Assembly: GCA_033813475.1 (NCBI GenBank)
Contig: JAPXRP010000001.1
Coordinates: forward strand, 1 to 59,208
From: Candidatus Hydrogenedentota bacterium
Lineage (GTDB): Bacteria > Hydrogenedentota > Hydrogenedentia > Hydrogenedentales > CAITNO01
Length of the DNA stretch: 59,208 bases
Direction of reading: 5' to 3'
Shown: positions 4,592 to 25,276 of the stretch, in pieces
How positions within the stretch are numbered: position 1 is the stretch's first letter
Layout: every line of letters begins with the position of its first letter
Translations under genes and position numbers: made by a program
The notes under the pieces: generated by a model
What the model saw: the letters and a program-made list of their open reading frames with translations, nothing else
Told to the model about the DNA's origin: nothing
The model's database searches: none

Positions 4592-6619
4592 ATGAGAAAC
4601 GGATTTTTGTTCGTTGCGTGGGCTGCCACCGCGGCGGCTGTGGGATGCGGGGCGGCTTTCGCCGCGCCGGGCGCGCTTTCGCTGGACGGCGTCACCGTGG
4701 TGCCGCATCTGATGCTGGACACGATGCGCTACACCAAGGTGCCGGAGCCCGCCGACGGCGCGCGGGTGCAGCTCTTTCTGCGCAACGCCTCGAAGGGGGT
4801 GGTGACCGTGGACGCGGCGTCGCGTCTGCTGTTCGGCGGAAAGGCCCCGGCGGATCTGCTGGCCTCGGAGGACTGGGCGTGGCATGACACGCCCGCCGCG
4901 CAGCAGGTGGGGACGCTGGTCCTCGCGCCGGACACCATGACGGTGTGGACCTTCAACGGCCGCAAGAAGCCCTTTGGTCCCGGCGGAACCTGCACCATGG
5001 CCCTGGGTCCGGAGGACGCCCCCTGGCTGGCGCGGGATATTGAAATCGCCGCGCCGAAACAGTGGATTTCCGCGATCACCTTCCTCGGGCCGGAGGCCGA
5101 CGTCCGCCCCGACACGCTGGTGGTGCACGTTGCCAACGAAGCCGCCGCGCCGCTTGAACTGCGCGGGTGCCGCCTGTGGCTGCCCCTGGACCCGAAGAAC
5201 CCGCGCGTGCTGGCGGCGCAGCCGCCGCTGGCGGAGATCACGCCCTTCAACGGCCACAAGAGCATTCCCACCGGGGACCGTGGCGGGTTCATCGCCCAAA
5301 CAGGCCCGCTCCCCCTGACCTACGCGGTGGTGGAGGTGACCGTGGCCGCAGGCGGCGCCGAGTTTTCGCTCTGGGGCCACCTGCGGGTCCGCAAGGAGGT
5401 CTTCGATATCTCCGGCGGCTGGGTGGGAAGCGATGACGCCCTCAAAAGCGAGGCGTTCCACAAGGCGCTCAAACGGTTCTACGTGAACACGGCGCACATG
5501 GCCTCCGTGCCCGGCTACACGGACACCGAACTGTACGCGAAGTATCCGCTCAAGTACTTCAACTGCCTGGAGCCCGCGCAGTACGACACGGACGAGCTGC
5601 TGCCGCGCATTCACGGCGTGGAGTGCCTGGGCGAGCCGCAGTACGGCGGCGGGCGGCCCGTGCCGCCGCAGGAGGTGTGGGAAAAGCTCTACCCCTACGC
5701 CGCGACGCGCCTGGCCACGACCCTGACAAACAGCGAGGAGCGCATCTGGCGCGACTACGCGGGCCTGAGCGACTTCACGCACTACGACGCCTACCGCGTC
5801 ACCGCGCCGTCGGCGGACGCGTGGTGGAAGTATGACCGCTGGACGGGCGGAAAAATCTACTGGGGATCCCCGCTGGAGACCATCACCGACATGTGCATCT
5901 CCCTGCGCGAGATGACCCGGCCCATGCCCTGCGCGTACTGGTCGCAGGGGCCGCACGAGGGCTGGGGCGTCTACGGCGGCCGCAAGCGCACCTCGCCCAC
6001 CCCCGAGGAGCTGCGCCTCCAGGCGCACCACGCCCTGTCCACCCGCATCACCTCGCTGTACTGGTTCAACCTGAGCCTCAAGACGCTGGTGCAGTGGCGC
6101 GACACGCTGGACGAGCTGGGGCGCGTGGGCCGCGAGATGCGGATGATGGACGACTTCCTGCTGGAGGGCGACGCCTACCGGCACGAACGCGTCAAGAAGG
6201 CGGACGGAAAACTGGACTGGGACCTCAACTCCGTGGCCTGCCCGCGCGGGGCGCTGCTCTTCGCCCTGGACCTCGACTACGACGCCGACCGCAAGGCCCG
6301 CGTGTTCCAGTTCGGCGCGCCCCGGGCCGCCGTGTTCTCCTTCCCGCTGCCCGCGTATCTGGGCGCGCCCGCCGACGTGTTCCGCATGGACGCCGACGGC
6401 GTCCACGATGTCTCCTGGGCGGCAAAGGACGGCGGCGTGGAGATCACCGACACCCGGTCGCTGGTGGGCATTTATGTGGCCGCGCCGGACAAGGAACTCC
6501 GCGGCCGCATGGCGGCGGAACACCAGGCGCTGCTCGCGTATGAGACGGCCCTGAACTTCGACCCGGCCCGCAACGACGCCGACTTCGCCGAACTGGAAAA
6601 CTACCTCGGCGGGAAATAG
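4592..6619 (+). CDS. Exported hypothetical protein (675 aa), no recognisable family
   Basis: Long ORF with protein-like composition and a signal peptide 'MRNGFLFVAWAATAAAVGCGAAFA'. It lies on the same strand between the transporter and the sulfatase. The antisense 704-aa ORF is R/G/P-rich and is rejected. Confidence 0.7.
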   Translation: MRNGFLFVAWAATAAAVGCGAAFAAPGALSLDGVTVVPHLMLDTMRYTKVPEPADGARVQLFLRNASKGVVTVDAASRLLFGGKAPADLLASEDWAWHDTPAAQQVGTLVLAPDTMTVWTFNGRKKPFGPGGTCTMALGPEDAPWLARDIEIAAPKQWISAITFLGPEADVRPDTLVVHVANEAAAPLELRGCRLWLPLDPKNPRVLAAQPPLAEITPFNGHKSIPTGDRGGFIAQTGPLPLTYAVVEVTVAAGGAEFSLWGHLRVRKEVFDISGGWVGSDDALKSEAFHKALKRFYVNTAHMASVPGYTDTELYAKYPLKYFNCLEPAQYDTDELLPRIHGVECLGEPQYGGGRPVPPQEVWEKLYPYAATRLATTLTNSEERIWRDYAGLSDFTHYDAYRVTAPSADAWWKYDRWTGGKIYWGSPLETITDMCISLREMTRPMPCAYWSQGPHEGWGVYGGRKRTSPTPEELRLQAHHALSTRITSLYWFNLSLKTLVQWRDTLDELGRVGREMRMMDDFLLEGDAYRHERVKKADGKLDWDLNSVACPRGALLFALDLDYDADRKARVFQFGAPRAAVFSFPLPAYLGAPADVFRMDADGVHDVSWAAKDGGVEITDTRSLVGIYVAAPDKELRGRMAAEHQALLAYETALNFDPARNDADFAELENYLGGK

Positions 6620-13470: not shown

Positions 13471-13991
13471 ATGACCAGGCCGCGAGAACGGTCTACGCCG
13501 AGCCGGGGAACCGCGTTGGCGCGAAACTGGCCGACATGGCGGCCTACACCGGCCTGCGCGCCCTGATCCATGCCGCGCTGGTCTACGGGGCGGGCCTCGC
13601 CGTCGAGGACCCGAAATTCATGCCCCTGCTGCTCGCGGGCGGGTGGGCGGCCCACCACGCCTACGACACCGTCTTCACCGCATGGCTCGGCGGAACCCCC
13701 GGCAAGCTGCTCCTGGGCATGCGCGTGACACGTCCCGACGGCGCGCCCGTCGGCTGGCGCCGCGCCCTGTGCCGCAGCCTCGCAGAATGGCTCAGCCGCC
13801 TGACCCTCGGCCTCGGCTACGCCGCAGCCTTCATGAACCCCGAACGCCGCACCCTGCACGACGTCCTGTGCGACACTGTGGTCGTGGATGTGTCCCGGGG
13901 ACGTTCCGTCCGCCCGGAGGACGCCCCCGCGAGGGAGGGTGTGCCGGAAGACGCCGTTTCCGCAGACGTCACGTCATGCGCGGGCGAATGA
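13467..13991 (+). CDS. RDD-family membrane protein
   Basis: Its ATG overlaps the upstream stop (ATGA at 13467-13470). It has hydrophobic segments and a C-terminal 'RRTLHDVLCDTVVV' typical of RDD domains. Confidence 0.65.
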   Translation: MNDQAARTVYAEPGNRVGAKLADMAAYTGLRALIHAALVYGAGLAVEDPKFMPLLLAGGWAAHHAYDTVFTAWLGGTPGKLLLGMRVTRPDGAPVGWRRALCRSLAEWLSRLTLGLGYAAAFMNPERRTLHDVLCDTVVVDVSRGRSVRPEDAPAREGVPEDAVSADVTSCAGE

Positions 13992-14211
13992 TGATTCGCC
14001 CCTACGGGTGGGGCCGCGGCGCAACGCACCGGACCAACGCCATTCTTACATGCGGGGGCGAATGATGATTCGCCCCTACGGGTGGGGCCGCAGCGTCGTG
14101 CATCGGACCGACGCCGTTCTGTCATGCGGGGGCGGTACGGCATGACATGCAAGGCATTCCCCCACGCGGCAGGGATCCAATCCGTCCTGTAGGGGCGGAT
14201 CATCATCCGCC
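13975..14211. repeat. REP-like element cluster: two direct copies of about 72 bp plus one inverted partial copy
   Basis: 'catgcggg(g)gcgaatgatgattcgcccctacgggtggggccgc' occurs at about 13975 and about 14048. Each copy holds the hairpin gggcgaat/attcgccc. The inverted relative 'gtaggggcggatcatcatccgccc' lies at 14188-14211. Confidence 0.8.
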
Positions 14212-14342
14212 CTCTTCCCGCCTCGTACAACACCCCGCCCCGGTATCCCGCACCCCGGGGTTGACGCGGAGCCGGGGCGCTGGCTATAGTGGCGGCGAGG
14301 CGCGGGGCCGGGGATCAGGCGGCCGCGCGAAAGGGAGACCGC

Positions 14343-16661
14343 ATGCGACTCACGGACGCCGAAAAACAGGAAATCCTCCGGTTTATTGAGGCCGGCAAGC
14401 CCCTGCCCGACAAGTACCGCTTCCTCCTCTTCGACGACAAGCGCGAGGTTGAGCTGGTCTGGAACGGAAAGACCGGCGAGGTCTGCAACATCGTCCTCCC
14501 CTTCCAGATCATCGAGCAGGTGGACGAGCCCCGCGCCGAAAAGACCGAGGACGCGCCCCTGCAGGGGATGCTCTTTGACGAGCGGGGACGGCAGCTCAAA
14601 GGCTGGACCAACAAGCTCATCTGGGGCGACAACAAGCTCATCCTCTCCTCCCTCAAGAACGGCCCCCTCCGCGACGAAATCGAGCAGCAGGGCGGCCTCA
14701 AGCTCATCTACATTGACCCGCCCTTCGACGTCGGCGCCGACTTCTCCATGGACATCGAAATCGGCGACGACACCTTTACCAAGAAGCCCAACATCCTGGA
14801 GGAAATCGCCTACCGCGACACCTGGGGCAAAGGGGCAGACTCGTTCATTGCCATGATCTATGAGCGTCTGGTGCTGATGCGGGATCTGTTGGCGGAGGAT
14901 GGGAGTATCTATGTGCATTGCGATTGGAGGGTGAACTCATTCGTTCGCAATTGCCTTGACGAAGTGTTCGGTAAGGACCGGTTAATCAACGAGATAGTCT
15001 GGAAGCGCGCCCACACAGTAAAAGGTAACATCGGACAGGGTAGCAAGCACCTTGGCGCAAATACAGACACAATTTTTCTTTATGCTAGGACTCCGAACTA
15101 TACATTTAATCAGCAGTACATTCCTTATTCTGAAGCCTACGTTGCGCAGTTCTTTCGGTACACGGAGAAAAGTGGGCGACGCTATCGCCTAATCAGCATG
15201 ATTGGCCCCGGAGGCGCGGCGAAAGGGAATCCCACTTATAGCGTTATGGGTGTCACGCGTTCATGGCGATACAGCGAAGCTAAAATGAGGGAGTTAATCG
15301 AAACAGGAATGGTCGTGCAAACGAATCCCGGAACGGTTCCACAGAGAAAACAGTATTTGGATGATGGGGATGGCGTATCCGTGCAATCGCTTTGGGACGA
15401 CATAACAGGCATTGCAGCTTCTTCCTCGGAGCGCGCGAATTACCCCACACAGAAGCCCGAAGCGCTCCTTGAACGCATATTGAAAACATCTTCCAACGAA
15501 GGCGAGCTGGTCGCGGATTTCTTCTGCGGTTCCGGCACAACGGCGGCGGTGGCGGAGAAGCTGGGCCGGAAGTGGATCGCTACGGACCTGGGGAAATTCG
15601 CGATTCACACGACGCGGAAGCGGATGATCGGGGTGCAGCGGGGGCTGAAGGCGTCGGGGAAGGGGTACCGGGCCTTTGAGATTCTGAATCTGGGGAAATA
15701 CGAGCGGCAGCATTATGTGGGGGTGAACCCGAACCTGCGGGAGGAGGAGCAGCGGAAGCAGGCGGAGGCGAAGGAGTCGGCGTTTCTGGACCTGATCCTG
15801 CGGGCGTACCGGGCGGAGCGGGTGGACGGCTTTGCCTGTTTCCACGGGAAGCGGGCGGGGCGGATGGTGTCGGTGGGGCCGGTGAACCTGCCGGTGACGC
15901 GGCTGTTTGTGGAGGAGGTGATTCTGGAGTGCCGCCGGAAGCGGGTCACGAAGGTGGACATCCTGGGTTTTGAGTTCGAGATGGGGCTGTTCCCCAACGT
16001 GCTGGACGAGGCGCGGGGCAAGGGGATAGACATCGCGCCGAAGTACATTCCGGCGGAGGTGTTTGACCGGCGGGCGGTGGAGAAGAACCAGGTGGTCTTC
16101 CACGACGTGTCCTTCATCGAGGTGCGGCCCCATGTGCGCGAGGGGGGCAGGGGAAAGGCCCCGGCGGTGGCGGCGGAGCTGACGGACTTCTCGGTGTTCT
16201 ACTCGCAGGACTCGGTGGCGGCGGCGGAGGCGGCGCTGAAAAACAAGGGCAGCCGGATCGTGGTGGAGAAGGGGCAGATTGTCAAGGTGAGCAGGGACGC
16301 CCGCGGGGTCGTGACGCGGGAGACCCTGACCAAGACCTGGACGGACTGGATAGACTACTGGGCGGTGGACTTCAACTTTGAAAGCAGGCGCGAGCTTATC
16401 CGCGTGGCGCGGCCCATCGCGGCGGGCCAGGGGGCGCTTCCGGGGGCGGAACCCCAGGCGGAGCTGGCGGAGTACGAGGAGGTGTGGACGGGGGACTATG
16501 TGTTTGAGAACGAGTGGCAGAGCTTCCGGACGAAGAAGGACCGGTCGCTGGAGCTGAAAAGCGTCTTCCATGAGTGCGCCCCGGGCCGCCGGAAGATCGC
16601 GGTGAAGGTGGTGGACATCTTCGGCAACGACACGATGACCATCGTGGAGGTGAACGTGTGA
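14343..16661 (+). CDS. mod: Type III R-M-like N6-adenine DNA methyltransferase (Mod), beta-class motif order
   Basis: ORF 14289..16661 is trimmed to ATG 14343. Motif IV 'IYIDPPFDVGADF' lies at 14715-14726. Motif I 'FFCGSGTTAAVAEKLGRKWIATD' lies at 15519 onward. The N-terminus 'KYRFLLFDDKREVELVWNGKTGEV' is typical of type III-like Mod proteins. Confidence 0.9.
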   Translation: MRLTDAEKQEILRFIEAGKPLPDKYRFLLFDDKREVELVWNGKTGEVCNIVLPFQIIEQVDEPRAEKTEDAPLQGMLFDERGRQLKGWTNKLIWGDNKLILSSLKNGPLRDEIEQQGGLKLIYIDPPFDVGADFSMDIEIGDDTFTKKPNILEEIAYRDTWGKGADSFIAMIYERLVLMRDLLAEDGSIYVHCDWRVNSFVRNCLDEVFGKDRLINEIVWKRAHTVKGNIGQGSKHLGANTDTIFLYARTPNYTFNQQYIPYSEAYVAQFFRYTEKSGRRYRLISMIGPGGAAKGNPTYSVMGVTRSWRYSEAKMRELIETGMVVQTNPGTVPQRKQYLDDGDGVSVQSLWDDITGIAASSSERANYPTQKPEALLERILKTSSNEGELVADFFCGSGTTAAVAEKLGRKWIATDLGKFAIHTTRKRMIGVQRGLKASGKGYRAFEILNLGKYERQHYVGVNPNLREEEQRKQAEAKESAFLDLILRAYRAERVDGFACFHGKRAGRMVSVGPVNLPVTRLFVEEVILECRRKRVTKVDILGFEFEMGLFPNVLDEARGKGIDIAPKYIPAEVFDRRAVEKNQVVFHDVSFIEVRPHVREGGRGKAPAVAAELTDFSVFYSQDSVAAAEAALKNKGSRIVVEKGQIVKVSRDARGVVTRETLTKTWTDWIDYWAVDFNFESRRELIRVARPIAAGQGALPGAEPQAELAEYEEVWTGDYVFENEWQSFRTKKDRSLELKSVFHECAPGRRKIAVKVVDIFGNDTMTIVEVNV

Positions 16662-16702
16662 ACAGACCGGACGGCCGACAGACGGGACCGCCCGTCCCGG
16701 CA

Positions 16703-17590
16703 ATGCCCACCTACCTCCGGCAGCGCCTGGTGCTGTTCCTGCTGGAGGCCGCGGGGGGGCGTCTGGGAAAGATGGACCTGCAGAAGCTGCTGTTCCTGCA
16801 CGGCGAGGAGCGGGAGACGCGGGACTACGCCTTCGTGCCCTACCAGTTCGGCTGCTACTCCTTCCAGGCCGCCGCCGACGTGGAGCTACTGGAGGCGTCC
16901 GGCTGGCTGGAGACCGAGGGAAACACCGTGCGCCTCCGCGCCGCGCCGGGCGCCGCGCCCTGGGCCGCCCGGAGCTGGGACCGGCAGGAGGTGCGGGACT
17001 GGCTGGCGGGCCAGCCCCTGCGGGGGGACGGGCTGGTGCGGGAAATCTACACCCGGTACCCCTATTACGCGATTCGCAGCAAAATGAAGGAGCGCGTGCT
17101 TGATCCCGAAACCCTGCGCCGGGTGGAGGATCTGGCCCGGAAGCTAAACCGCCCGGGGACGGTCCTGTTCACCCTGGGGTATGAGGGCATCGCCTTCGAG
17201 GCCTTCGCCAACAAGCTGATTAGGAACGGGGTGCGGCTCCTGTGCGACGTGCGGGCCAACCCGCTGAGCCGGAAGTTCGGCTTCTCCAAGAGGAGCCTGG
17301 AGACCCTTCTTCCCAAGCTGGGCATCCAGTATGCGCATGTTCCGGAACTCGGCATTGCCTCCGAAAACCGGCGGGATCTGGAAACGGAGGAGGACCGCGC
17401 CCGCCTTTTCGTTCAGTATGCGGAGTCGCTCACGGACCGGGAGGAGGGGCTTCGACGGGTGGAGGGGCTGCTGCGCGAGTGGAAACGCGTCGCCCTGGCG
17501 TGCTTCGAGGCGGACCCGGCGCGGTGCCACCGGCACTGCGTTTCCGACGCCCTGGCCGAACGCGGCGGCTACCGGGTGAAACATCTATGA
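16703..17590 (+). CDS. Two-domain protein: N-terminal Panacea/SocA-like or wHTH-like domain plus C-terminal DUF488
   Basis: The C-terminal half 'TLGYEGIAFEAFANKL...LLCDVRANPLSRKFGFSK...LGIQYAHVPELG...ACFEADPARCHRHCV' matches the DUF488 pattern as I remember it. The start is ATG 16703. GTG 16658 is an alternative and would overlap the mod stop (GTGA). Confidence 0.75.
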   Translation: MPTYLRQRLVLFLLEAAGGRLGKMDLQKLLFLHGEERETRDYAFVPYQFGCYSFQAAADVELLEASGWLETEGNTVRLRAAPGAAPWAARSWDRQEVRDWLAGQPLRGDGLVREIYTRYPYYAIRSKMKERVLDPETLRRVEDLARKLNRPGTVLFTLGYEGIAFEAFANKLIRNGVRLLCDVRANPLSRKFGFSKRSLETLLPKLGIQYAHVPELGIASENRRDLETEEDRARLFVQYAESLTDREEGLRRVEGLLREWKRVALACFEADPARCHRHCVSDALAERGGYRVKHL

Positions 17591-18420
17591 GGGAAAGGGT
17601 TCTCATCACCGTCAAGACCTACCCCGTGCTTTCGCGGAAGTACGCGGAGCTGGTCTGCACGGCGGGGGTGACGGAGGCGGGGGAATGGCGGCGGCTTTAC
17701 CCCATCCAGTTCAGGCTGCTCCAGGACGGGCAGAAGTACCATAAGTACCAGTGGGTGGAGGCGGACATTGAGAAGTCCGACACGGACGACCGCCCGGAGT
17801 CCTTTAAGATCGTCGGCGACTCCCTGAGGACGCTCGGGACGCCTCTTCCGGCGGCTCGCCATTGGGCGGACCGGAAACGCGCCTTTTCGGACAAGGTGGA
17901 GTGCCATGAACGCCTGGACCCCCTGTTCGAGCGGGCGCACCGGAACGAGTTGTCCCTGGCGCTGTTCAAGCCCGCGCGCATCCTTCGGTTTGAACCCGAG
18001 GAGACAGAACGGGAGTGGGACCGCGACCGGCTTGACAAGCTGGAGGCGGAAAAACGGCAGCTCCAGCTTTTTGACGACGAGGAGTCCGTGGCCCGCCAGT
18101 TTGAGGTGGTGAGGAAACTCCCCTACAAGTTCTATTGCCGCTTTGAGGACGCGAGCGGCAAATCCAGCCGCCTGATGATCGAGGACTGGGAGATTGGCGT
18201 TTTGTTCTTCAAGTGCCTCGACGAGGCGGGGGGCGATGAAAAGGCCGCCCTCGAGAAGGTCCGGCAGAAGTACTGGACGATGTTTGTCGAAAGCGGACGG
18301 CATGAAATGTGGCTGATTTTGGGAACCGTGCTTGAGCACCACCGCAAGCGCGCCCCAAACCCCTTCGTGATCGTGGGGATTTTCAATCCGCTTCACAACC
18401 CCCAGGGAGAACTGTTCTGA
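17587..18420 (+). CDS. Hypothetical protein (277 aa), no family recognised
   Basis: Its ATG overlaps the upstream stop (ATGA at 17587-17590), and it ends 1 nt before the res ATG. Composition is protein-like ('MRERVLITVKTYPVLSRKYAELVCTAGV...'). I trimmed it from ORF 17242..18420. Confidence 0.7.
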   Translation: MRERVLITVKTYPVLSRKYAELVCTAGVTEAGEWRRLYPIQFRLLQDGQKYHKYQWVEADIEKSDTDDRPESFKIVGDSLRTLGTPLPAARHWADRKRAFSDKVECHERLDPLFERAHRNELSLALFKPARILRFEPEETEREWDRDRLDKLEAEKRQLQLFDDEESVARQFEVVRKLPYKFYCRFEDASGKSSRLMIEDWEIGVLFFKCLDEAGGDEKAALEKVRQKYWTMFVESGRHEMWLILGTVLEHHRKRAPNPFVIVGIFNPLHNPQGELF

Positions 18421-18421
18421 C

Positions 18422-21109
18422 ATGGCGCTTCATCCCGAATTCCCCTCCTCGCCGCACGCGGTGCTGCGGCCGGAAATCCGCTGGTTCCCCGCCGACGAGA
18501 CCCTGCGCGAGACGGGCATGGAAAAGCTCATGCCGCCGCTGGTGCCCATGCTGCGCCGGAAGGTGCGCGATTTCCGGGAGAGCGGATACGCCGGGGCGTC
18601 CGACACAAGCCGCAGCCTGCTTGTCTGGTGGTTTGAGACGCCGCACCTGGTGCCCGGCCCGCAGGGCGCCGACACGGAGTTTGCGTTCTATTTCGCCCAG
18701 CGGGAGGCGCTGGAGACCATTGTCTACCTGCACGATGTTGTCGGCGTCCGGGACAAGCACGACCTGATGCGGTTTGACACGGTGGGCAACGTGTCGGGGG
18801 GGATGTTCGATGAGACCTGGCCCCGTCTGGTGGTCAAGATGGCCACGGGAAGCGGAAAGACAAAGGTGCTCGCCCTGGCCCTGGCGTGGAGCTACTACCA
18901 CCGGCTGTATGAGGCGGACTCCGACCTGTCCCGCAACTTCCTGGTCATCACGCCGAACATCATCGTGCTGGACCGGATTTACAAGGACTTTCAGGGGCTG
19001 CGCATATTCTTCTCAGACCCCGTGATTCCGGACAACGGGGTGGACGGACGAAACTGGCGGGACGATTTCCAGCTCACCCTGCACGTGCAGGACGAGGTGC
19101 GCGTGACACGCCCCACGGGGAACATCTTCCTCACCAACATCCACCGCGTGTATTCGGGGGACGACATCCCCCCGTCCCCCGGGGACGAGGACACGATGGA
19201 CTACTTCCTGGGCCGGCGGCCCACGGGGGGGACCACGGACTCCAAGGTGGACCTGGGGATGATCGTCCGCGACATTGACGAGCTGATGATCCTGAACGAC
19301 GAGGCGCACCACATCCACGACCCCCGCATGGCGTGGTTTAAGTCCATTGAGGACATCCACAACCGCCTCCTGCAGAAGGGGGGCGCCCTTTCGCTGCAAG
19401 TGGACACGACGGCCACGCCCCGGCACAACAACGGGGCCATCTTCGTGCAGACGGTCTGCGACTACCCCCTGGTGGAGGCCATTTCCCAGAACGTTGTCAA
19501 GCATCCGGTGCTTCCGGACGCGGCGAGCCGCGCGAAGCTCCAGGAGTCCCAAAGCGCGAAGTACACGGAGAAATACGCCGACTACATCCACCTGGGGGTG
19601 GTCGAGTGGCGCAAGGCGCACGCCGAGCACGCCAAAATGGGGAAGAAGGCCGTCCTCTTCGTGATGACCGACGACACGCGCAACTGTGACGAGGTGGCGG
19701 AGCATCTGCGGCGCACGTACTCCGAGTTTGAGGACGAGGAATCGGTTCTGGTCATCCACACCAAGAAGAACGGGGACATCTCCGAGTCCGCCTCGGGAAA
19801 GGACAAGGAGGAGCTGGAACGGCTGCGAAAACAGGCCAACGAGATAGACCGCACCGACAGCCCCTACAAGGCCATCGTCTCGGTGCTCATGCTTAAGGAG
19901 GGGTGGGATGTCCGGAACGTCACCACCATCGTCGGGCTGCGCGCCTACGCCGCGCAAAGCAACATCCTGCCGGAGCAGACACTGGGCCGCGGGCTCCGGA
20001 AGATGTATGCGGGCGAAGTGGAGGAGTATGTGAGCGTTGTGGGGACCAACGCCTTCATGGAGTTCGTGGAGTCCATTCAGGCGGAGGGGGTGGTGCTGGA
20101 GCGCCGGGCGATGGGCGAGGGCACGACCGGCGCCGCGCCGCTTGTCATCGAGGTGGACCGCGACAACCCCAAGAAGGACATCGCCGCCCTGGACATCGAG
20201 ATTCCCGTGCTCGCCCCGCGTGTGTACCGGGAGTACGGGAGTCTTTCCGAACTGGACATCTCGCTGGCCCCCGGTGCCAGGGTGCCCGTTCGCGAGTTCA
20301 CCAAGGAGGAGCAGCGGCTCATCGTTTTCCGGGACATCACCACGGGAGAGGAAACGCACCGCACGGTTCTCGAACCCGCCGGGGTTGCGGATTATCGGAG
20401 CGTGATCGCGTATTTCACGCGCGCACTGATGAAGGACCTGCGCCTTTTCAGCGGCTACGACGTGCTGTATGGCAAGGTGAAGGTGTTTGTGCAATCCGGC
20501 CTGTTTGACCGTCCGGTGGACTTGGAGGCTGCGAACACCCTGCGCAACCTGGCCGAACCGGCCGCCGCCAAGACACTCTTCGACACGGTCAAGCAGGCAA
20601 TCAACGCGCTCACCGTCCGGGACATGGGGGGGGCGGAGATACGGGAAACCATCCGCCTGAGCGAAATGAGGCCGTTTGTCGCAAAGAATCAGGGATACCT
20701 TCTCCCGCGACGAAGCATTTTTAACAAAATCATCGGGGACGGCGATCTGGAGCTTCGCTTTGCCGCCTTTCTGGACGATTGCGGGGACATTGTGTCCTTC
20801 GCCAAGAACTACCTCGCCGTCCGCTTCAAGCTGGACTATGTGAAGGCCAACGGGGACATTTCCAACTACTACCCGGACTTCTTCGTCAAGCTTCCCGATG
20901 GCAGGCTGGTGGTGGTGGAAACCAAGGGCCGCGTGGATTTGGACGTTCCCCTCAAGATGGAACGGCTGCGGCAATGGTGCGACGATGTGAATGCGGCCAC
21001 GCCCGCGCATTCCTGCGATTTTATCTACGTGGACGAGGAGAGCTTCTACGCATACAAGCCAACGTCGTTTGGACAGGTCCTGTCCGCGTTTCGCGAGTAC
21101 AAGGGCTGA
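18422..21109 (+). CDS. res: Type III restriction enzyme Res-like SF2 helicase with C-terminal PD-(D/E)xK-like nuclease
   Basis: Walker A 'KMATGSGKTKV' and motif II 'ILNDEAHHI' are present. The helicase C-terminal block includes 'LKEGWDVRNV'. A C-terminal nuclease-like 'NYYPDFFVKLPDGRLVVVETKG' follows. Confidence 0.9.
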   Translation: MALHPEFPSSPHAVLRPEIRWFPADETLRETGMEKLMPPLVPMLRRKVRDFRESGYAGASDTSRSLLVWWFETPHLVPGPQGADTEFAFYFAQREALETIVYLHDVVGVRDKHDLMRFDTVGNVSGGMFDETWPRLVVKMATGSGKTKVLALALAWSYYHRLYEADSDLSRNFLVITPNIIVLDRIYKDFQGLRIFFSDPVIPDNGVDGRNWRDDFQLTLHVQDEVRVTRPTGNIFLTNIHRVYSGDDIPPSPGDEDTMDYFLGRRPTGGTTDSKVDLGMIVRDIDELMILNDEAHHIHDPRMAWFKSIEDIHNRLLQKGGALSLQVDTTATPRHNNGAIFVQTVCDYPLVEAISQNVVKHPVLPDAASRAKLQESQSAKYTEKYADYIHLGVVEWRKAHAEHAKMGKKAVLFVMTDDTRNCDEVAEHLRRTYSEFEDEESVLVIHTKKNGDISESASGKDKEELERLRKQANEIDRTDSPYKAIVSVLMLKEGWDVRNVTTIVGLRAYAAQSNILPEQTLGRGLRKMYAGEVEEYVSVVGTNAFMEFVESIQAEGVVLERRAMGEGTTGAAPLVIEVDRDNPKKDIAALDIEIPVLAPRVYREYGSLSELDISLAPGARVPVREFTKEEQRLIVFRDITTGEETHRTVLEPAGVADYRSVIAYFTRALMKDLRLFSGYDVLYGKVKVFVQSGLFDRPVDLEAANTLRNLAEPAAAKTLFDTVKQAINALTVRDMGGAEIRETIRLSEMRPFVAKNQGYLLPRRSIFNKIIGDGDLELRFAAFLDDCGDIVSFAKNYLAVRFKLDYVKANGDISNYYPDFFVKLPDGRLVVVETKGRVDLDVPLKMERLRQWCDDVNAATPAHSCDFIYVDEESFYAYKPTSFGQVLSAFREYKG

Positions 21110-21141
21110 CCAGGGTTTTCTCGTTTTCTTGGAGCCCACCC

Positions 21142-22026
21142 ATGCGCTTTGAGGGCCGGATATACCGTCCGCCGAGCGAGGCGGACAGCGTGCTGATCCA
21201 GTTGACCGTGGGGTGCAGCCACAACCGCTGCGCCTTTTGCGCCATGTACGCGGACAAGAAGTACCGTGTGCGGCCGTTGGAGGAGGTGTTGGAGGATGTG
21301 GACGCGTCGGCGCGGCTGTGGCCCCGGGCGCGGCGGGTGTTTGTGTGCGACGGCGACGCCCTGAGCGCGGGCTATGACACCTTCGCCGCGCTGTGCGGGC
21401 ACATCGTCCGGCGCTTTCCCGCGCTGGAGCGTATCTCCGCGTACACGAACGCCCGGGACATTCTGCGGCTGTCGCCGGAGGAGCTGGCACGGCTCCGGGA
21501 GCTGCGCTTTTCCCTGTGCTATCTCGGGCTGGAGAGCGGGGGCGCGGCGGTGCTGGAGCGCATCCGCAAGGGGGCGACGCCGGAGGACATGGCGGGCATG
21601 GCGGAGAAGACGTGCGCGGCGGGCATGGACCTGTCGGCCATCGTGCTGCTGGGGGCGGGCGGCCGCGCGCTCACGGCGGACCACGTTTCCGGGACCATCG
21701 CCGTCGTCAACCGGATGCGGCCCCGATACCTTTCTTTCCTCACCGCCATGATCGTGCCGCACTCCGCCCTGATGACGTGGACAAAGCAGGGGGAATTTGA
21801 ACCCCTCACGGACCGGGAAATCCTGCGAGAGGCCCGCGACATGCTCGCCGGGCTGGAACTGGACGACACGCTGTTCCGCATGAACCATGTGTCCAACCTC
21901 ATTGCCCTCGGCGGGCGCCTCCCGCGCGACCAAGTCGCGCTGCTCGCGCAGCTAGACGCCCTCCTTCCCCGCGCGGGCGACCAGGTCACCTGCGTCTGCG
22001 ACGAAGACCAGGCGATGTTCCTGTAG
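21142..22026 (+). CDS. Radical SAM protein (about 294 aa, no SPASM-like C-terminal Cys clusters)
   Basis: ORF 20779..22026 is trimmed to ATG 21142. 'IYRPPSEADSVLIQLTVGCSHNRCAFCAMY' contains the CxxxCxxC cluster. It begins 32 nt downstream of res on the same strand. Confidence 0.85.
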   Translation: MRFEGRIYRPPSEADSVLIQLTVGCSHNRCAFCAMYADKKYRVRPLEEVLEDVDASARLWPRARRVFVCDGDALSAGYDTFAALCGHIVRRFPALERISAYTNARDILRLSPEELARLRELRFSLCYLGLESGGAAVLERIRKGATPEDMAGMAEKTCAAGMDLSAIVLLGAGGRALTADHVSGTIAVVNRMRPRYLSFLTAMIVPHSALMTWTKQGEFEPLTDREILREARDMLAGLELDDTLFRMNHVSNLIALGGRLPRDQVALLAQLDALLPRAGDQVTCVCDEDQAMFL

Positions 22027-24856: not shown

Positions 24857-25276
24857 ATGATTCCCGACCACACAGCGCTTGAAAAGTCCCTGGGACAGCT
24901 TGAGAAGAGCATGGGGTATTTAAACTCTGAGGCCGCGCGCGGCGACACCGGGTTGCGGGAGCAGTTCCGGGCGGCGACCATCAAGGCCTTCGAGTACACC
25001 TATGCCTGCGCGGTGGCGGTAATACGCAGACGGCTGGCGGAACTGTCCGAAAACCCCGGCGGGGTGGATGAAATTCCGTTCCTCGACCAGATGCGGATGG
25101 CGGGAGAGGCGGGGCTGCTCCGCAACCCGGCGGCCTTCCGTGAGTTCCGCGAGGCGCGCAACATCACCGCGCACACCTACGAGGAGGAACTGGCCGAGCG
25201 GGTGATCGCGGTGCTGGACGGCTTCGTCGGGGAAATGCATTTCCTGCTGGGGCAGTTGAAACGGGGAAACGCATGA
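24857..25276 (+). CDS. HEPN-domain protein (HI0074-type nucleotidyltransferase substrate-binding family)
   Basis: 'IKAFEYTYACAVAVIRRRL' is present, as is the Rx4H motif 'ARNITAHTY'. It starts 14 nt after the E2 stop. Confidence 0.8.
   Translation: MIPDHTALEKSLGQLEKSMGYLNSEAARGDTGLREQFRAATIKAFEYTYACAVAVIRRRLAELSENPGGVDEIPFLDQMRMAGEAGLLRNPAAFREFREARNITAHTYEEELAERVIAVLDGFVGEMHFLLGQLKRGNA

What the first reader, a model, noticed from the sequence alone, without database searches (positions are those of the whole stretch)
14343..21109. Type III R-M-like operon with two extra translationally coupled genes between mod and res
- **Seen in the sequence:** four same-strand ORFs are packed with essentially no intergenic space. 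The mod stop (TGA 16659-61) overlaps a GTG at 16658, or lies 42 nt before ATG 16703. There is an ATGA overlap at 17587-17590 and a 1-nt gap at 18420/18422.
- **Outer genes:** these are a clear N6-adenine Mod (DPPF motif followed by FxGSGTT) and a Res-like SF2 helicase with 'DEAHH' and a C-terminal 'YYPDFFVKL..VVVETKG' nuclease-like motif.
- **Established knowledge:** canonical type III systems are two genes, mod then res.
- **What differs here:** a DUF488 fusion protein and an unrecognisable 277-aa protein sit exactly between them.
- **Inference:** this looks like a four-component derivative. It could be an R-M core with an added sensor, regulator or toxin-control module. I do not recognise it as any named defence system.
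- **Island edges:** the locus is bounded upstream by REP-like repeats. It carries a compositionally foreign cassette inside mod, which fits a mobile defence island.
Basis: partly seen in the sequence, partly recalled or inferred. Interest (0 to 1): 0.85.

Follow-up and report, generated by a model that had tools for sequence, protein, structure and literature searches.

The report
Restriction operon carrying an embedded defence-candidate pair
This is an ordinary type III restriction-modification operon with a free-standing, already catalogued but untested two-gene defence candidate (PADLOC PDC-M19) between its two genes, a position that holds many different defence genes in related operons.

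Summary
Four same-strand genes at 14343-21109 are joined by start/stop overlaps: GTGA at 16658, ATGA at 17587, and TGA-C-ATG at 18418-18424.

- **Outer genes:** they form a complete type III R-M system. Mod has DPPF followed by FCGSG. Res has GSGKT, DEAH, QTLGRGLR and a C-terminal PD...ETK motif.
- **Middle genes:** they are not an unknown extension. They match PADLOC candidate PDC-M19A and PDC-M19B over full length (E 1e-91 and 2e-94). This is a 'guilt-by-embedding' candidate with no published test that I could find.
- **The pair stands alone:** its two genes are adjacent in 78 of 80 genomes, but window-like Mod or Res flanks it in only 8.
- **The R-M family has a cargo slot:** in 66 related operons, 35 have mod and res overlapping (TAATG) and 28 carry inserts of 0.46-3.8 kb at that junction. 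The inserts include IetAS, PD-T4-4, SoFic-like, PDC-S13, PDC-S22, GIY-YIG and IrrE+DUF4411. Only one carries PDC-M19.
- **Low-GC 'cassette' in mod:** it is the hypervariable target-recognition domain.
- **Protein predictions:** A is a Panacea-like domain fused to DUF488. B is predicted to be a multi-OB-fold, ssDNA-binding-like protein.

The pair's mechanism is unknown. My proposed sensor-effector model is inference.

The parts
13975..14212 (.). Repeat cluster upstream of the operon. It has two tandem 74-nt copies (13975-14048 and 14049-14122) and one inverted partial copy (14186-14212), each carrying the hairpin GGGCGAATGATGATTCGCCC.
   Evidence: 3 matches in the window against 0 in 100 shuffles.
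14261..14290 (+). Promoter-like site, TTGACG-18-TATAGT (10 of 12 positions). It is the only + strand candidate in 13800-21400.
   Evidence: This is a consensus match only.
14343..16661 (+). mod: type III beta-class N6-adenine DNA methyltransferase of 772 aa, with DPPF at aa 125 and FCGSG at aa 394.
   Evidence: PF01555, E 1e-39. PADLOC MTase_III, E 6e-112; motifs; relatives align from residue 2.
14880..15500 (+). Target-recognition domain of mod. It is the low-GC, hypervariable segment, most likely acquired by TRD exchange.
   Evidence: identity to 50 family members is 16-32% here against 75-96% in the flanks, and GC3 is 0.40-0.63 against about 0.9..
16658..17590 (+). Gene A (PDC-M19A), 310 aa from GTG 16658 or 295 aa from ATG 16703. 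It has an N-terminal Panacea/SocA-like domain and a C-terminal DUF488 domain.
   Evidence: DUF488, E 5.8e-27. PDC-M19A, E 1.2e-91. N-terminal domain; start codon.
17587..18420 (+). Gene B (PDC-M19B), 277 aa, with no Pfam family. The predicted fold is a multi-OB-fold, ssDNA-binding-like protein.
   Evidence: PDC-M19B, E 2e-94; 4829 homologues; pLDDT 86, pTM 0.85. Foldseek hits to CTC1, Teb1, RPA, RecO and LEF-3.
18422..21109 (+). res: type III restriction subunit of 895 aa. It is an SF2 helicase (GSGKT 143, DEAH 293, QTLGRGLR 519) with a C-terminal PD-(D/E)xK nuclease motif (PD 818-819, ETK 833-835).
   Evidence: ResIII. REase_III, E 4e-18; motifs; 77-79% identity to homologues across phyla.

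Best explanation
The locus is a complete type III restriction-modification operon from a very conserved and widely transferred family. Its mod-res junction acts as a cargo slot. In this window the slot holds PDC-M19, a free-standing two-gene module made of A (a Panacea-like domain fused to DUF488) and B (a multi-OB-fold protein).

**Shown**
- The four genes are identified as above.
- They are joined by start/stop overlaps behind a single promoter-like site.
- The A-B pair is autonomous.
- Related operons hold varied cargo at the same junction.
- mod carries a swapped target-recognition domain.

**Inferred**
- Mod and Res work as a normal type III enzyme. Mod hemimethylates an asymmetric site. 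Res, bound to Mod, cuts unmethylated DNA after ATP-dependent communication between two sites.
- The cargo was brought in by recombination through the conserved mod 3' and res 5' flanks.
- Because res translation normally follows mod through a TAATG overlap, the cargo now sits inside that coupling chain and is expressed with the R-M genes.
- PDC-M19 gives a second, mechanistically independent layer of defence.

**My low-confidence guess for how PDC-M19 works**
- B binds single-stranded DNA or another replication or recombination intermediate of an invader.
- This releases or activates the DUF488 catalytic domain of A.
- The Panacea-like N-terminal domain otherwise keeps that catalytic domain in check.
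For: **Type III identity:**

**Operon structure:** searches show the overlaps. One search finds one + strand promoter-like site at 14261-14290 and no convincing internal terminator.

**PDC-M19 identity:** one search gives full-length HMM matches. trace the candidate to the guilt-by-embedding study.

**Autonomy of the pair**
- A lies next to B in 78 of 80 loci from bacteria and archaea. Window-like Mod or Res is present in 8.
- the immediate neighbours are highly varied. An N6_N4_Mtase lies upstream in 5 of 73 and a ResIII downstream in 7 of 68. The rest are housekeeping or other defence genes.
- relatives occur on 23 plasmids and in 7 phages.

**Cargo slot**
- of 66 Res-centred metagenome loci that contain both the mod end and the res start, 35 have the TAATG overlap, 3 have a 112-nt insert and 28 have inserts of 0.46-3.8 kb.
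- the cargo includes IetAS, PD-T4-4/PDC-M47, PDC-S13 (x6), PDC-S22 (x5), GIY-YIG (x4), IrrE/M78 with DUF4411, PDDEXK_3, a Schlafen-like protein, a SoFic-like protein, and a HATPase+STAS+PIN trio.
- res5'::mod3' scars lie between stacked cassettes.
- embedded copies of B fall in at least 4 separate clades.

**TRD:**

**Folds:**
Against: - No experiment supports a defence role for PDC-M19. I found no paper that mentions it outside the source table.
- The A-B pair is over-represented in this one R-M family among the closest relatives of B: 8 of the 21 best genome hits. This could reflect functional cooperation rather than mere hitch-hiking.
- The OB-fold assignment rests on a predicted model. Global TM-scores are low (0.25-0.41) even though Foldseek probabilities are 0.97-1.0.
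- The Panacea-like assignment is weak for the window protein itself. It has no Pfam hit. One distant homologue scores above the gathering threshold, and the single PDB hit has E 0.1.
- The biochemical activity of DUF488 is unknown.
Confidence: 0.72

Rival explanations
1. This is an integrated four-component system. A and B would be dedicated subunits or regulators of this type III enzyme, for example a sensor or a toxin-control module, and the four proteins would act together.
For: - All four genes are translationally coupled.
- The same four-gene order recurs in at least 6 complete and 4 partial loci from several phyla.
- 8 of the 21 closest B homologues are embedded in this same R-M family.
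Against: - About 90% of A-B pairs lack this R-M system.
- 35 of 66 family operons have no insert, and 27 carry unrelated cargo.
- Embedded copies are polyphyletic.
- Mod and Res keep every canonical motif and are 69-79% identical to cargo-free relatives.
Confidence: 0.1
2. A-B is a PrrC-like guard. It would be an abortive-infection module held silent by the R-M complex and triggered when a phage inhibits or overwhelms the restriction enzyme.
For: - The precedent is prrC, embedded in the type IC locus EcoprrI and activated by T4 Stp (PMC12707154).
- The pair is embedded inside the R-M operon and co-translated with it.
- Repeated independent capture at the same site suggests that the position is beneficial.
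Against: - In the guilt-by-embedding paper's figure, PrrC is labelled as found almost only inside type I systems. A-B is mostly found outside any R-M system.
- The slot accepts validated autonomous systems such as IetAS and PD-T4-4. This argues for a general hotspot.
Confidence: 0.08
3. A-B is not an anti-phage system. It would instead be a mobile-element function, such as an addiction (toxin-antitoxin) pair or an ssDNA-handling or establishment function of plasmids and phages, that happened to land in the R-M operon.
For: - B homologues occur on 23 plasmids, 11 of them conjugative. These include Sulfolobus conjugative plasmids, often next to integrases.
- A distant B homologue in 7 Gordonia phages lies next to the immunity repressor.
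- B has an ssDNA-binding-like fold.
- A has a Panacea-like, antitoxin-type domain.
Against: - All the other identified occupants of the same slot are known or candidate defence genes.
- In the temperate Gordonia phage the B-like gene is co-oriented with, and overlaps, the immunity repressor gene. From general knowledge, prophage defence genes are often found beside the repressor.
- Many chromosomal copies sit next to housekeeping genes with no mobile-element genes as immediate neighbours.
Confidence: 0.1

Closest known systems
Type III restriction-modification systems (EcoP15I/EcoP1I type)
   Same: - mod comes before res on one strand.
- Mod is a beta-class m6A methyltransferase with a central TRD between motif IV (DPPF) and motif I (FCGSG).
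- Res is an SF2 helicase with a C-terminal PD-(D/E)xK nuclease motif.
- In cargo-free relatives mod and res are translationally coupled.
   Different: - Two extra genes lie between mod and res.
- Res scores below the cut-off of every NCBIfam type III or BPTD_3080 model (223 bits against a cut-off of 800). It therefore belongs to a family that those models do not name.
PADLOC phage defence candidate PDC-M19 (Payne et al. 2024, bioRxiv 10.1101/2024.01.29.577857; cassette CAS_00089)
   Same: - Both proteins match the PDC-M19A and PDC-M19B models end to end.
- The genes are in the same order, on the same strand and overlapping.
   Different: - That study drew its candidates from genes embedded in BREX, DISARM and type I R-M systems. 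Here the host system is type III.
- No function or phenotype has been published for PDC-M19.
Embedded defence genes in R-M loci: prrC in EcoprrI, DarTG2 between hsdS and hsdR (RptR island)
   Same: - A second defence module is nested between the genes of an R-M operon and expressed with it.
- The site behaves as a recombination hotspot (PMC12255303; PMC12707154).
   Different: - The host is type III, and the slot is the mod-res junction.
- Nothing shows functional dependence on the R-M system, as is known for PrrC.
PanA (Panacea/SocA domain) toxin-antitoxin pairs
   Same: - The N-terminal domain of A carries the Panacea-like motif QKLLFL...FVPY.YG.YSF.
- One distant homologue passes the Pfam SocA_Panacea threshold.
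- The gene is paired with a tightly coupled partner.
   Different: - In A the domain is fused to DUF488 rather than standing alone.
- The window protein itself gives no Pfam hit.
- Some relatives have a DUF488-only protein and lack this domain.
- No toxin has been identified.
RPA / CST / Teb1 / baculovirus LEF-3 multi-OB-fold ssDNA-binding proteins
   Same: - The predicted fold of B matches them best: Foldseek E 1e-4 against PDB 6w6w_A and 8e-5 against LEF-3, with probabilities 0.97-1.0.
- The N-terminal 85 residues have the classical five-strand OB topology.
   Different: - There is no sequence similarity and the global TM-scores are low.
- B has invariant acidic, Cys and His residues (EDWE 199-202, C24, H118, C210, H252). 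These might mark a catalytic or metal site that plain SSBs lack.

Membership tests
Type III R-M system | Mod is an N6-adenine methyltransferase with motif IV (DPPY/F) before motif I (FxGxG) and a TRD between them. | tested here: met
   DPPF at aa 125 and FCGSG at aa 394. PF01555 E 1e-39. PADLOC MTase_III E 6e-112. The hypervariable segment at aa 190-380 lies between the motifs.
Type III R-M system | Res has SF2 helicase motifs and a C-terminal PD-(D/E)xK endonuclease motif. | tested here: met
   GSGKT 143, DEAH 293, TATP 330, QTLGRGLR 519, and PD 818-819 with ETK 833-835. ResIII E 3.5e-12. REase_III E 4e-18.
Type III R-M system | The operon has two genes, with mod directly followed by res. | tested here: not met
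   1760 nt holding two genes separate the mod stop from the res start in the window. In 35 of 66 relatives mod and res overlap by 1 nt as TAATG.
Type III R-M system | The enzyme hemimethylates an asymmetric site and cleaves in an ATP-dependent way that needs two inversely oriented unmethylated sites. | not testable with these tools
   This needs methylome data and enzyme assays.
NCBIfam BPTD_3080 family restriction endonuclease (NF046055) | The whole-protein score reaches the curated cut-off of 800 bits. | tested here: not met
   223 bits, and only residues 39-388 match.
PADLOC PDC-M19 | Both component HMMs (PDC-M19A and PDC-M19B) match adjacent genes on the same strand. | tested here: met
   A: PDLC04505, E 1.2e-91, residues 4-294 against profile positions 2-293 of 294. 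B: PDLC04508, E 2e-94, residues 2-277 against profile positions 3-269 of 269. The genes overlap at ATGA.
PADLOC PDC-M19 | The system has anti-phage activity. | not testable with these tools
   It is listed only as a candidate. It was not among the candidates tested in PMC12881386, and no paper in the library mentions it.
PrrC-like R-M guard | The module is found almost exclusively embedded in its partner R-M system. | tested here: not met
   Window-like Mod or Res is present in 8 of 80 loci that contain B. The immediate neighbours are highly varied.
PanA (Panacea) antitoxin | The Pfam SocA_Panacea (PF13274) domain is present. | tested here: inconclusive
   The window protein has no hit, even at E <= 10. 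The L074 homologue scores 27.7 bits against a gathering score of 25.7, and the L051 homologue has E 0.26. A profile of A hits the PDB chain 7yk3_B motif region at E 0.1.
OB-fold ssDNA-binding proteins | The protein has an OB-fold barrel or barrels with structural similarity to RPA/SSB-type proteins. | tested here: inconclusive
   The AF2 model has pLDDT 86.3. Foldseek gives CTC1 at E 1e-4, LEF-3 at E 8e-5 and the RecO N-terminal OB at probability 0.97, but global TM-scores are only 0.2-0.4. No binding assay exists.

The most novel reading that the evidence does not exclude
This very conserved type III R-M lineage might be a dedicated carrier platform for defence genes.
- Its conserved mod 3' end and res 5' start would serve as homology arms.
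- A recurrent palindromic hairpin and res5'::mod3' scars would mark cassette exchange and stacking.
- The cargo would be expressed by translational coupling.
- Cargo such as PDC-M19 might also cooperate with the enzyme. For example, the OB-fold protein B could bind single-stranded ends or intermediates made after Res cleavage and switch on the DUF488 effector.
Probability: 0.15. Interest if true: 0.65.

Novelty: new member of a known kind. Interest (0 to 1): 0.35.

Why it matters
**What changes**
- The finding turns an apparently new four-gene system into two known parts: a type III R-M system and PADLOC candidate PDC-M19.

**What remains of interest**
- PDC-M19 is widespread. B has about 4,800 homologues in bacteria, archaea, plasmids and phages, and the pair is untested. 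It joins two domains of unknown role in defence, DUF488 and a multi-OB-fold protein.
- The published 'guilt-by-embedding' survey covered Hma, BREX, DISARM and type I systems. In the type III family studied here, 28 of 66 operons carry cargo at the mod-res junction, including validated systems. The remaining unannotated inserts are therefore a ready list of further candidates.

Tried and rejected
- **Single-sequence AlphaFold2 model of B:** useless (pLDDT 38). I repeated it with an 80-sequence alignment.
- **PDB searches by sequence:** B found nothing. A alone returned only spurious nanobody matches.
- **Literature:** searches for PDC-M19, DUF488-N3 and DUF488 found no functional study.
- **Source organism:** The source organism is unidentified.
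- **Conserved third partner for A-B:** I tested this by clustering 625 flanking ORFs. Only the Mod (9 loci) and Res (7 loci) clusters recur, so I rejected it.
- **Gordonia phage 'immunity repressor' upstream of the B-like gene:** I tested whether it is a DUF488 protein. It is not.
- **Gene after B on Sulfolobus plasmid pSOG2:** I tested whether it is a DUF488 protein. It is not.
- **Low-GC segment of mod as an inserted mobile cassette:** rejected, because it aligns in frame with the family's variable TRD.
- **Long antisense ORFs** (for example 15294-16703 and 19013-21490 on the minus strand): treated as high-GC artefacts.
Full report
**1. Observation**

The ORF list and the raw sequence confirm four same-strand genes.
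- mod runs from 14343 to 16661 and encodes 772 aa.
- Gene A ends at 17590.
- Gene B runs from 17587 to 18420 and encodes 277 aa.
- res runs from 18422 to 21109 and encodes 895 aa.

- The mod stop TGA is at 16659-16661, and an in-frame GTG at 16658 gives a GTGA overlap.
- ATG 16703 lies 41 nt after the mod stop.
- The ATGA overlap between A and B is at 17587-17590.
- B stops with TGA at 18418-18420, then comes C, then the res ATG at 18422.

GTG 16658 is the likelier start of A, giving 310 aa, for three reasons.
- GGAGG at 16646-16650 lies 7 nt before it, and no such site precedes ATG 16703.
- In relatives, A starts at an ATGA that overlaps the mod stop.
- Gene callers report 310-aa products for near-identical copies.

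One sigma-70-like site, TTGACG-18-TATAGT at 14261-14290, precedes mod. No other + strand promoter-like site and no convincing terminator lies inside the block. A single operon is therefore the simplest reading.

**2. The outer genes**

Mod matches PF01555 (E 1e-39) and PADLOC MTase_III (E 6e-112). DPPF at aa 125 precedes FCGSG at aa 394, which is the beta-class order of type III Mods.

Res matches ResIII and PADLOC REase_III. It has GSGKT 143, DEAH 293, TATP 330 and QTLGRGLR 519, plus a C-terminal PD 818-819 ... ETK 833-835 nuclease motif.

Res is below the cut-off of all NCBIfam restriction-enzyme models; its best score is 223 bits for BPTD_3080 against a cut-off of 800. Res homologues from many phyla are 77-79% identical to it, and a 17-sequence alignment has 90% mean column identity.

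**3. The 'foreign cassette' in mod**

GC falls to about 0.50 at 14750-15500. I aligned the window Mod with 50 full-length family members.
- Residues about 190-380 (nt about 14880-15500) are 16-32% identical to the family.
- The flanking parts are 75-96% identical.
- GC3 drops from about 0.9 to 0.40-0.63 in the same stretch.

This segment lies between motif IV and motif I, where the target-recognition domain sits. The dip is therefore best read as a recently exchanged TRD allele that changes specificity, which from general knowledge is known for type III mod genes. It is not a sign of a mobile island.

**4. The middle genes are a catalogued candidate**

A matches PADLOC PDC-M19A (E 1.2e-91, end to end) and B matches PDC-M19B (E 2e-94).

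The PDC entries come from Payne et al. 2024 (bioRxiv 10.1101/2024.01.29.577857). That study proposed 145 single-gene and multi-gene candidates because they were found embedded in BREX, DISARM or type I R-M systems. PDC-M19 is cassette CAS_00089 in its tables.

I found no test of PDC-M19. It was not among the candidates assayed in PMC12881386, and no paper in the library names it. Both proteins also match PHROG families of unknown function.

**5. The pair is autonomous**

B has 4829 homologues at E <= 0.001. A scan of one genome per species with a B alignment returned 80 loci from many bacterial phyla and archaea.
- A DUF488 protein lies next to B in 78 of the 80 loci. One exception is cut by a contig end.
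- Window-like Mod or Res is present in only 8: L001, L002, L004, L006, L009, L010, L011 and L021.
- Clustering 625 flanking ORFs found no other recurrent neighbour.
- Pfam scans of the nearest neighbours gave an N6_N4_Mtase upstream in 5 of 73 and a ResIII downstream in 7 of 68.
- The other neighbours were highly varied. They included housekeeping genes (aconitase, chaperonin, ThiC, tRNA synthetase) and other defence genes (type I HsdR/HsdS, MmeI-like, Schlafen/AlbA_2, AbiEii-like ATPases).

B relatives also occur on mobile elements.
- They are on 23 plasmids, 11 of them conjugative.
- A distant form is in 7 Gordonia phages, where it overlaps the end of the immunity repressor gene.
- In Rhizobium and Burkholderia plasmids, B is paired convergently with a short DUF488-only protein.

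**6. The R-M family has a cargo slot**

A scan of metagenome contigs with a Res alignment gave 80 loci with Res 72-78% identical to the window's. Of these, 66 contain both the mod 3' end and the res start.
- In 35 loci, mod ends ...VGGKK and its TAA stop overlaps the res ATG (TAATG).
- In 3 loci there is a 112-nt insert.
- In 28 loci there are inserts of 458-3838 nt.

The inserts encode a range of proteins.
- PDC-S13 (Bro-N), in 6 loci
- PDC-S22 (KilA-N), in 5 loci
- a GIY-YIG protein, in 4 loci
- an IrrE/M78 peptidase with DUF4411
- a PDDEXK_3 nuclease
- a Schlafen/AlbA_2 protein
- IetA with IetS
- PD-T4-4/PDC-M47
- in the B-centred loci, a HATPase+STAS-like+PIN trio and a SoFic-like Fic protein

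Only one of the 28 (L115) holds A-B. L099 shows B abutting res at a contig end.

Cargo genes often recreate the TAATG or ATGA overlaps at both junctions.

Where cassettes are stacked (L009, L010), they are separated by in-frame scars. Each scar is the first 20-52 codons of res fused to the last ~47 codons of mod. This is what recombination between whole related operons would leave behind.

In a neighbour-joining tree of B, the embedded copies fall in at least four clades interleaved with free-standing copies (no bootstrap support was computed). Capture or release therefore seems to have happened repeatedly.

**7. What the pair may do**

*Protein A.*
- Its C-terminal DUF488 domain (E 5.8e-27) has invariant D182, R184, S189, C267, E269 and C275, and near-invariant H276 and R277.
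- Its N-terminal ~130 residues carry the motif QKLLFL...FVPY.YG.YSF.
- A profile of A hits the same motif in PDB 7yk3_B at E 0.1.
- One distant homologue passes the Pfam SocA_Panacea threshold, but the window protein itself does not. The Panacea-like call is therefore weak.

*Protein B.*
- It has no Pfam or PDB sequence match.
- With an 80-sequence alignment, AlphaFold2 gave pLDDT 86.3 and pTM 0.85.
- Foldseek's best matches are multi-OB-fold ssDNA binders: CTC1 at E 1e-4, Teb1, RADX, BRCA2, RPA, the RecO N-terminal domain and baculovirus LEF-3 at E 8e-5.
- Global TM-scores are low, at 0.2-0.4.

*Model.* I infer a sensor-effector pair. B would bind single-stranded nucleic acid from an invader and control the DUF488 domain of A. 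This is a hypothesis with low confidence, and nothing here shows an activity.

**8. Surroundings**

- Upstream genes encode a sulfatase, a lectin-like protein and an RDD protein.
- Downstream genes encode a radical SAM protein, a mannitol dehydrogenase, a 2-oxoacid dehydrogenase E2 subunit and a HEPN-like protein.
- The operon is thus a compact insertion of about 6.9 kb with slightly lower GC than its flanks, not part of a large defence island.
- The repeat cluster at 13975-14212 is real, but I could not test whether it is a genome-wide REP family.

**9. Verdict**

- The locus is a type III R-M operon carrying an embedded, already catalogued, free-standing defence candidate.
- Nesting of defence genes inside R-M systems is a known phenomenon: PrrC in EcoprrI, DarTG2 in a type I system, and the guilt-by-embedding study.
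- What is less familiar is the host type (type III) and the high occupancy and variety of its mod-res slot.
- I rate the find as a new member of a known kind, of modest interest.

Noticed in passing
L081-L160 and P0121-P0240 (relatives of window 18422-21109): Res of this family is unusually conserved across phyla: 72-79% identical to the window's, with 90% mean column identity in a 17-sequence alignment. The Mod TRD in the same operons is hypervariable.
   Followed up: partly
L009:10839-11063; L010:3798-4085 and 5833-6170: Chimeric in-frame scars lie between stacked cargo cassettes. Each is the first 20-52 codons of res fused to the last ~47 codons of mod. The breakpoints differ between loci, which points to recombination between whole operons rather than a site-specific event.
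   Followed up: partly
L087, L089, L090, L096, L104, L109, L112, L123, L134, L139, L152 (just after the mod stop): A palindromic hairpin of the type AAACCCGTCGAATTCGACGGGTTT recurs at the left edge of different cargo in 11 of 35 cargo-bearing loci. It makes up part of the 112-nt insert of L109, L112 and L123. Its role (terminator, attenuator or recombination site) is unknown. The window has only a short GC hairpin, GACGGG-ACCG-CCCGTC, at about 16683-16698.
   Followed up: partly
L164 (Gordonia phage Nymphadora, genes 43 and 44): A distant B homologue (26% identity) overlaps the end of the annotated immunity repressor gene in 7 Gordonia phages. That repressor is not a DUF488 protein, so the wider B family pairs with other partners.
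   Followed up: partly
L166 (Burkholderia plasmid pYS1) and L167 (Rhizobium plasmid pRL8): On these conjugative plasmids B is paired convergently with a short DUF488-only protein of about 160 aa that lacks the Panacea-like domain. The conserved core of the pair is therefore DUF488 plus B.
   Followed up: no
window 24857-25276 (+): A 139-aa ORF carries the NTase_sub_bind (HEPN-like) domain (E 2e-18). It may be half of an MNT-HEPN toxin-antitoxin pair.
   Followed up: no
window 21109-21142: A radical SAM gene starts at ATG 21142, only 32 nt after the res stop on the same strand, with no terminator-like site between them. It may be read through from the R-M operon.
   Followed up: no
window 15294-16703 (-) and 19013-21490 (-): Very long antisense ORFs of 469 and 825 aa overlap mod and res. 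I did not search them against any protein family. I read them as by-products of the high GC content, not genes.
   Followed up: no
L161:2858-5306: In a metagenome contig that encodes an identical B protein, the region after B is called as several short genes (254, 190, 111 and 208 aa) instead of one res. This could be a disrupted res or an assembly error.
   Followed up: no
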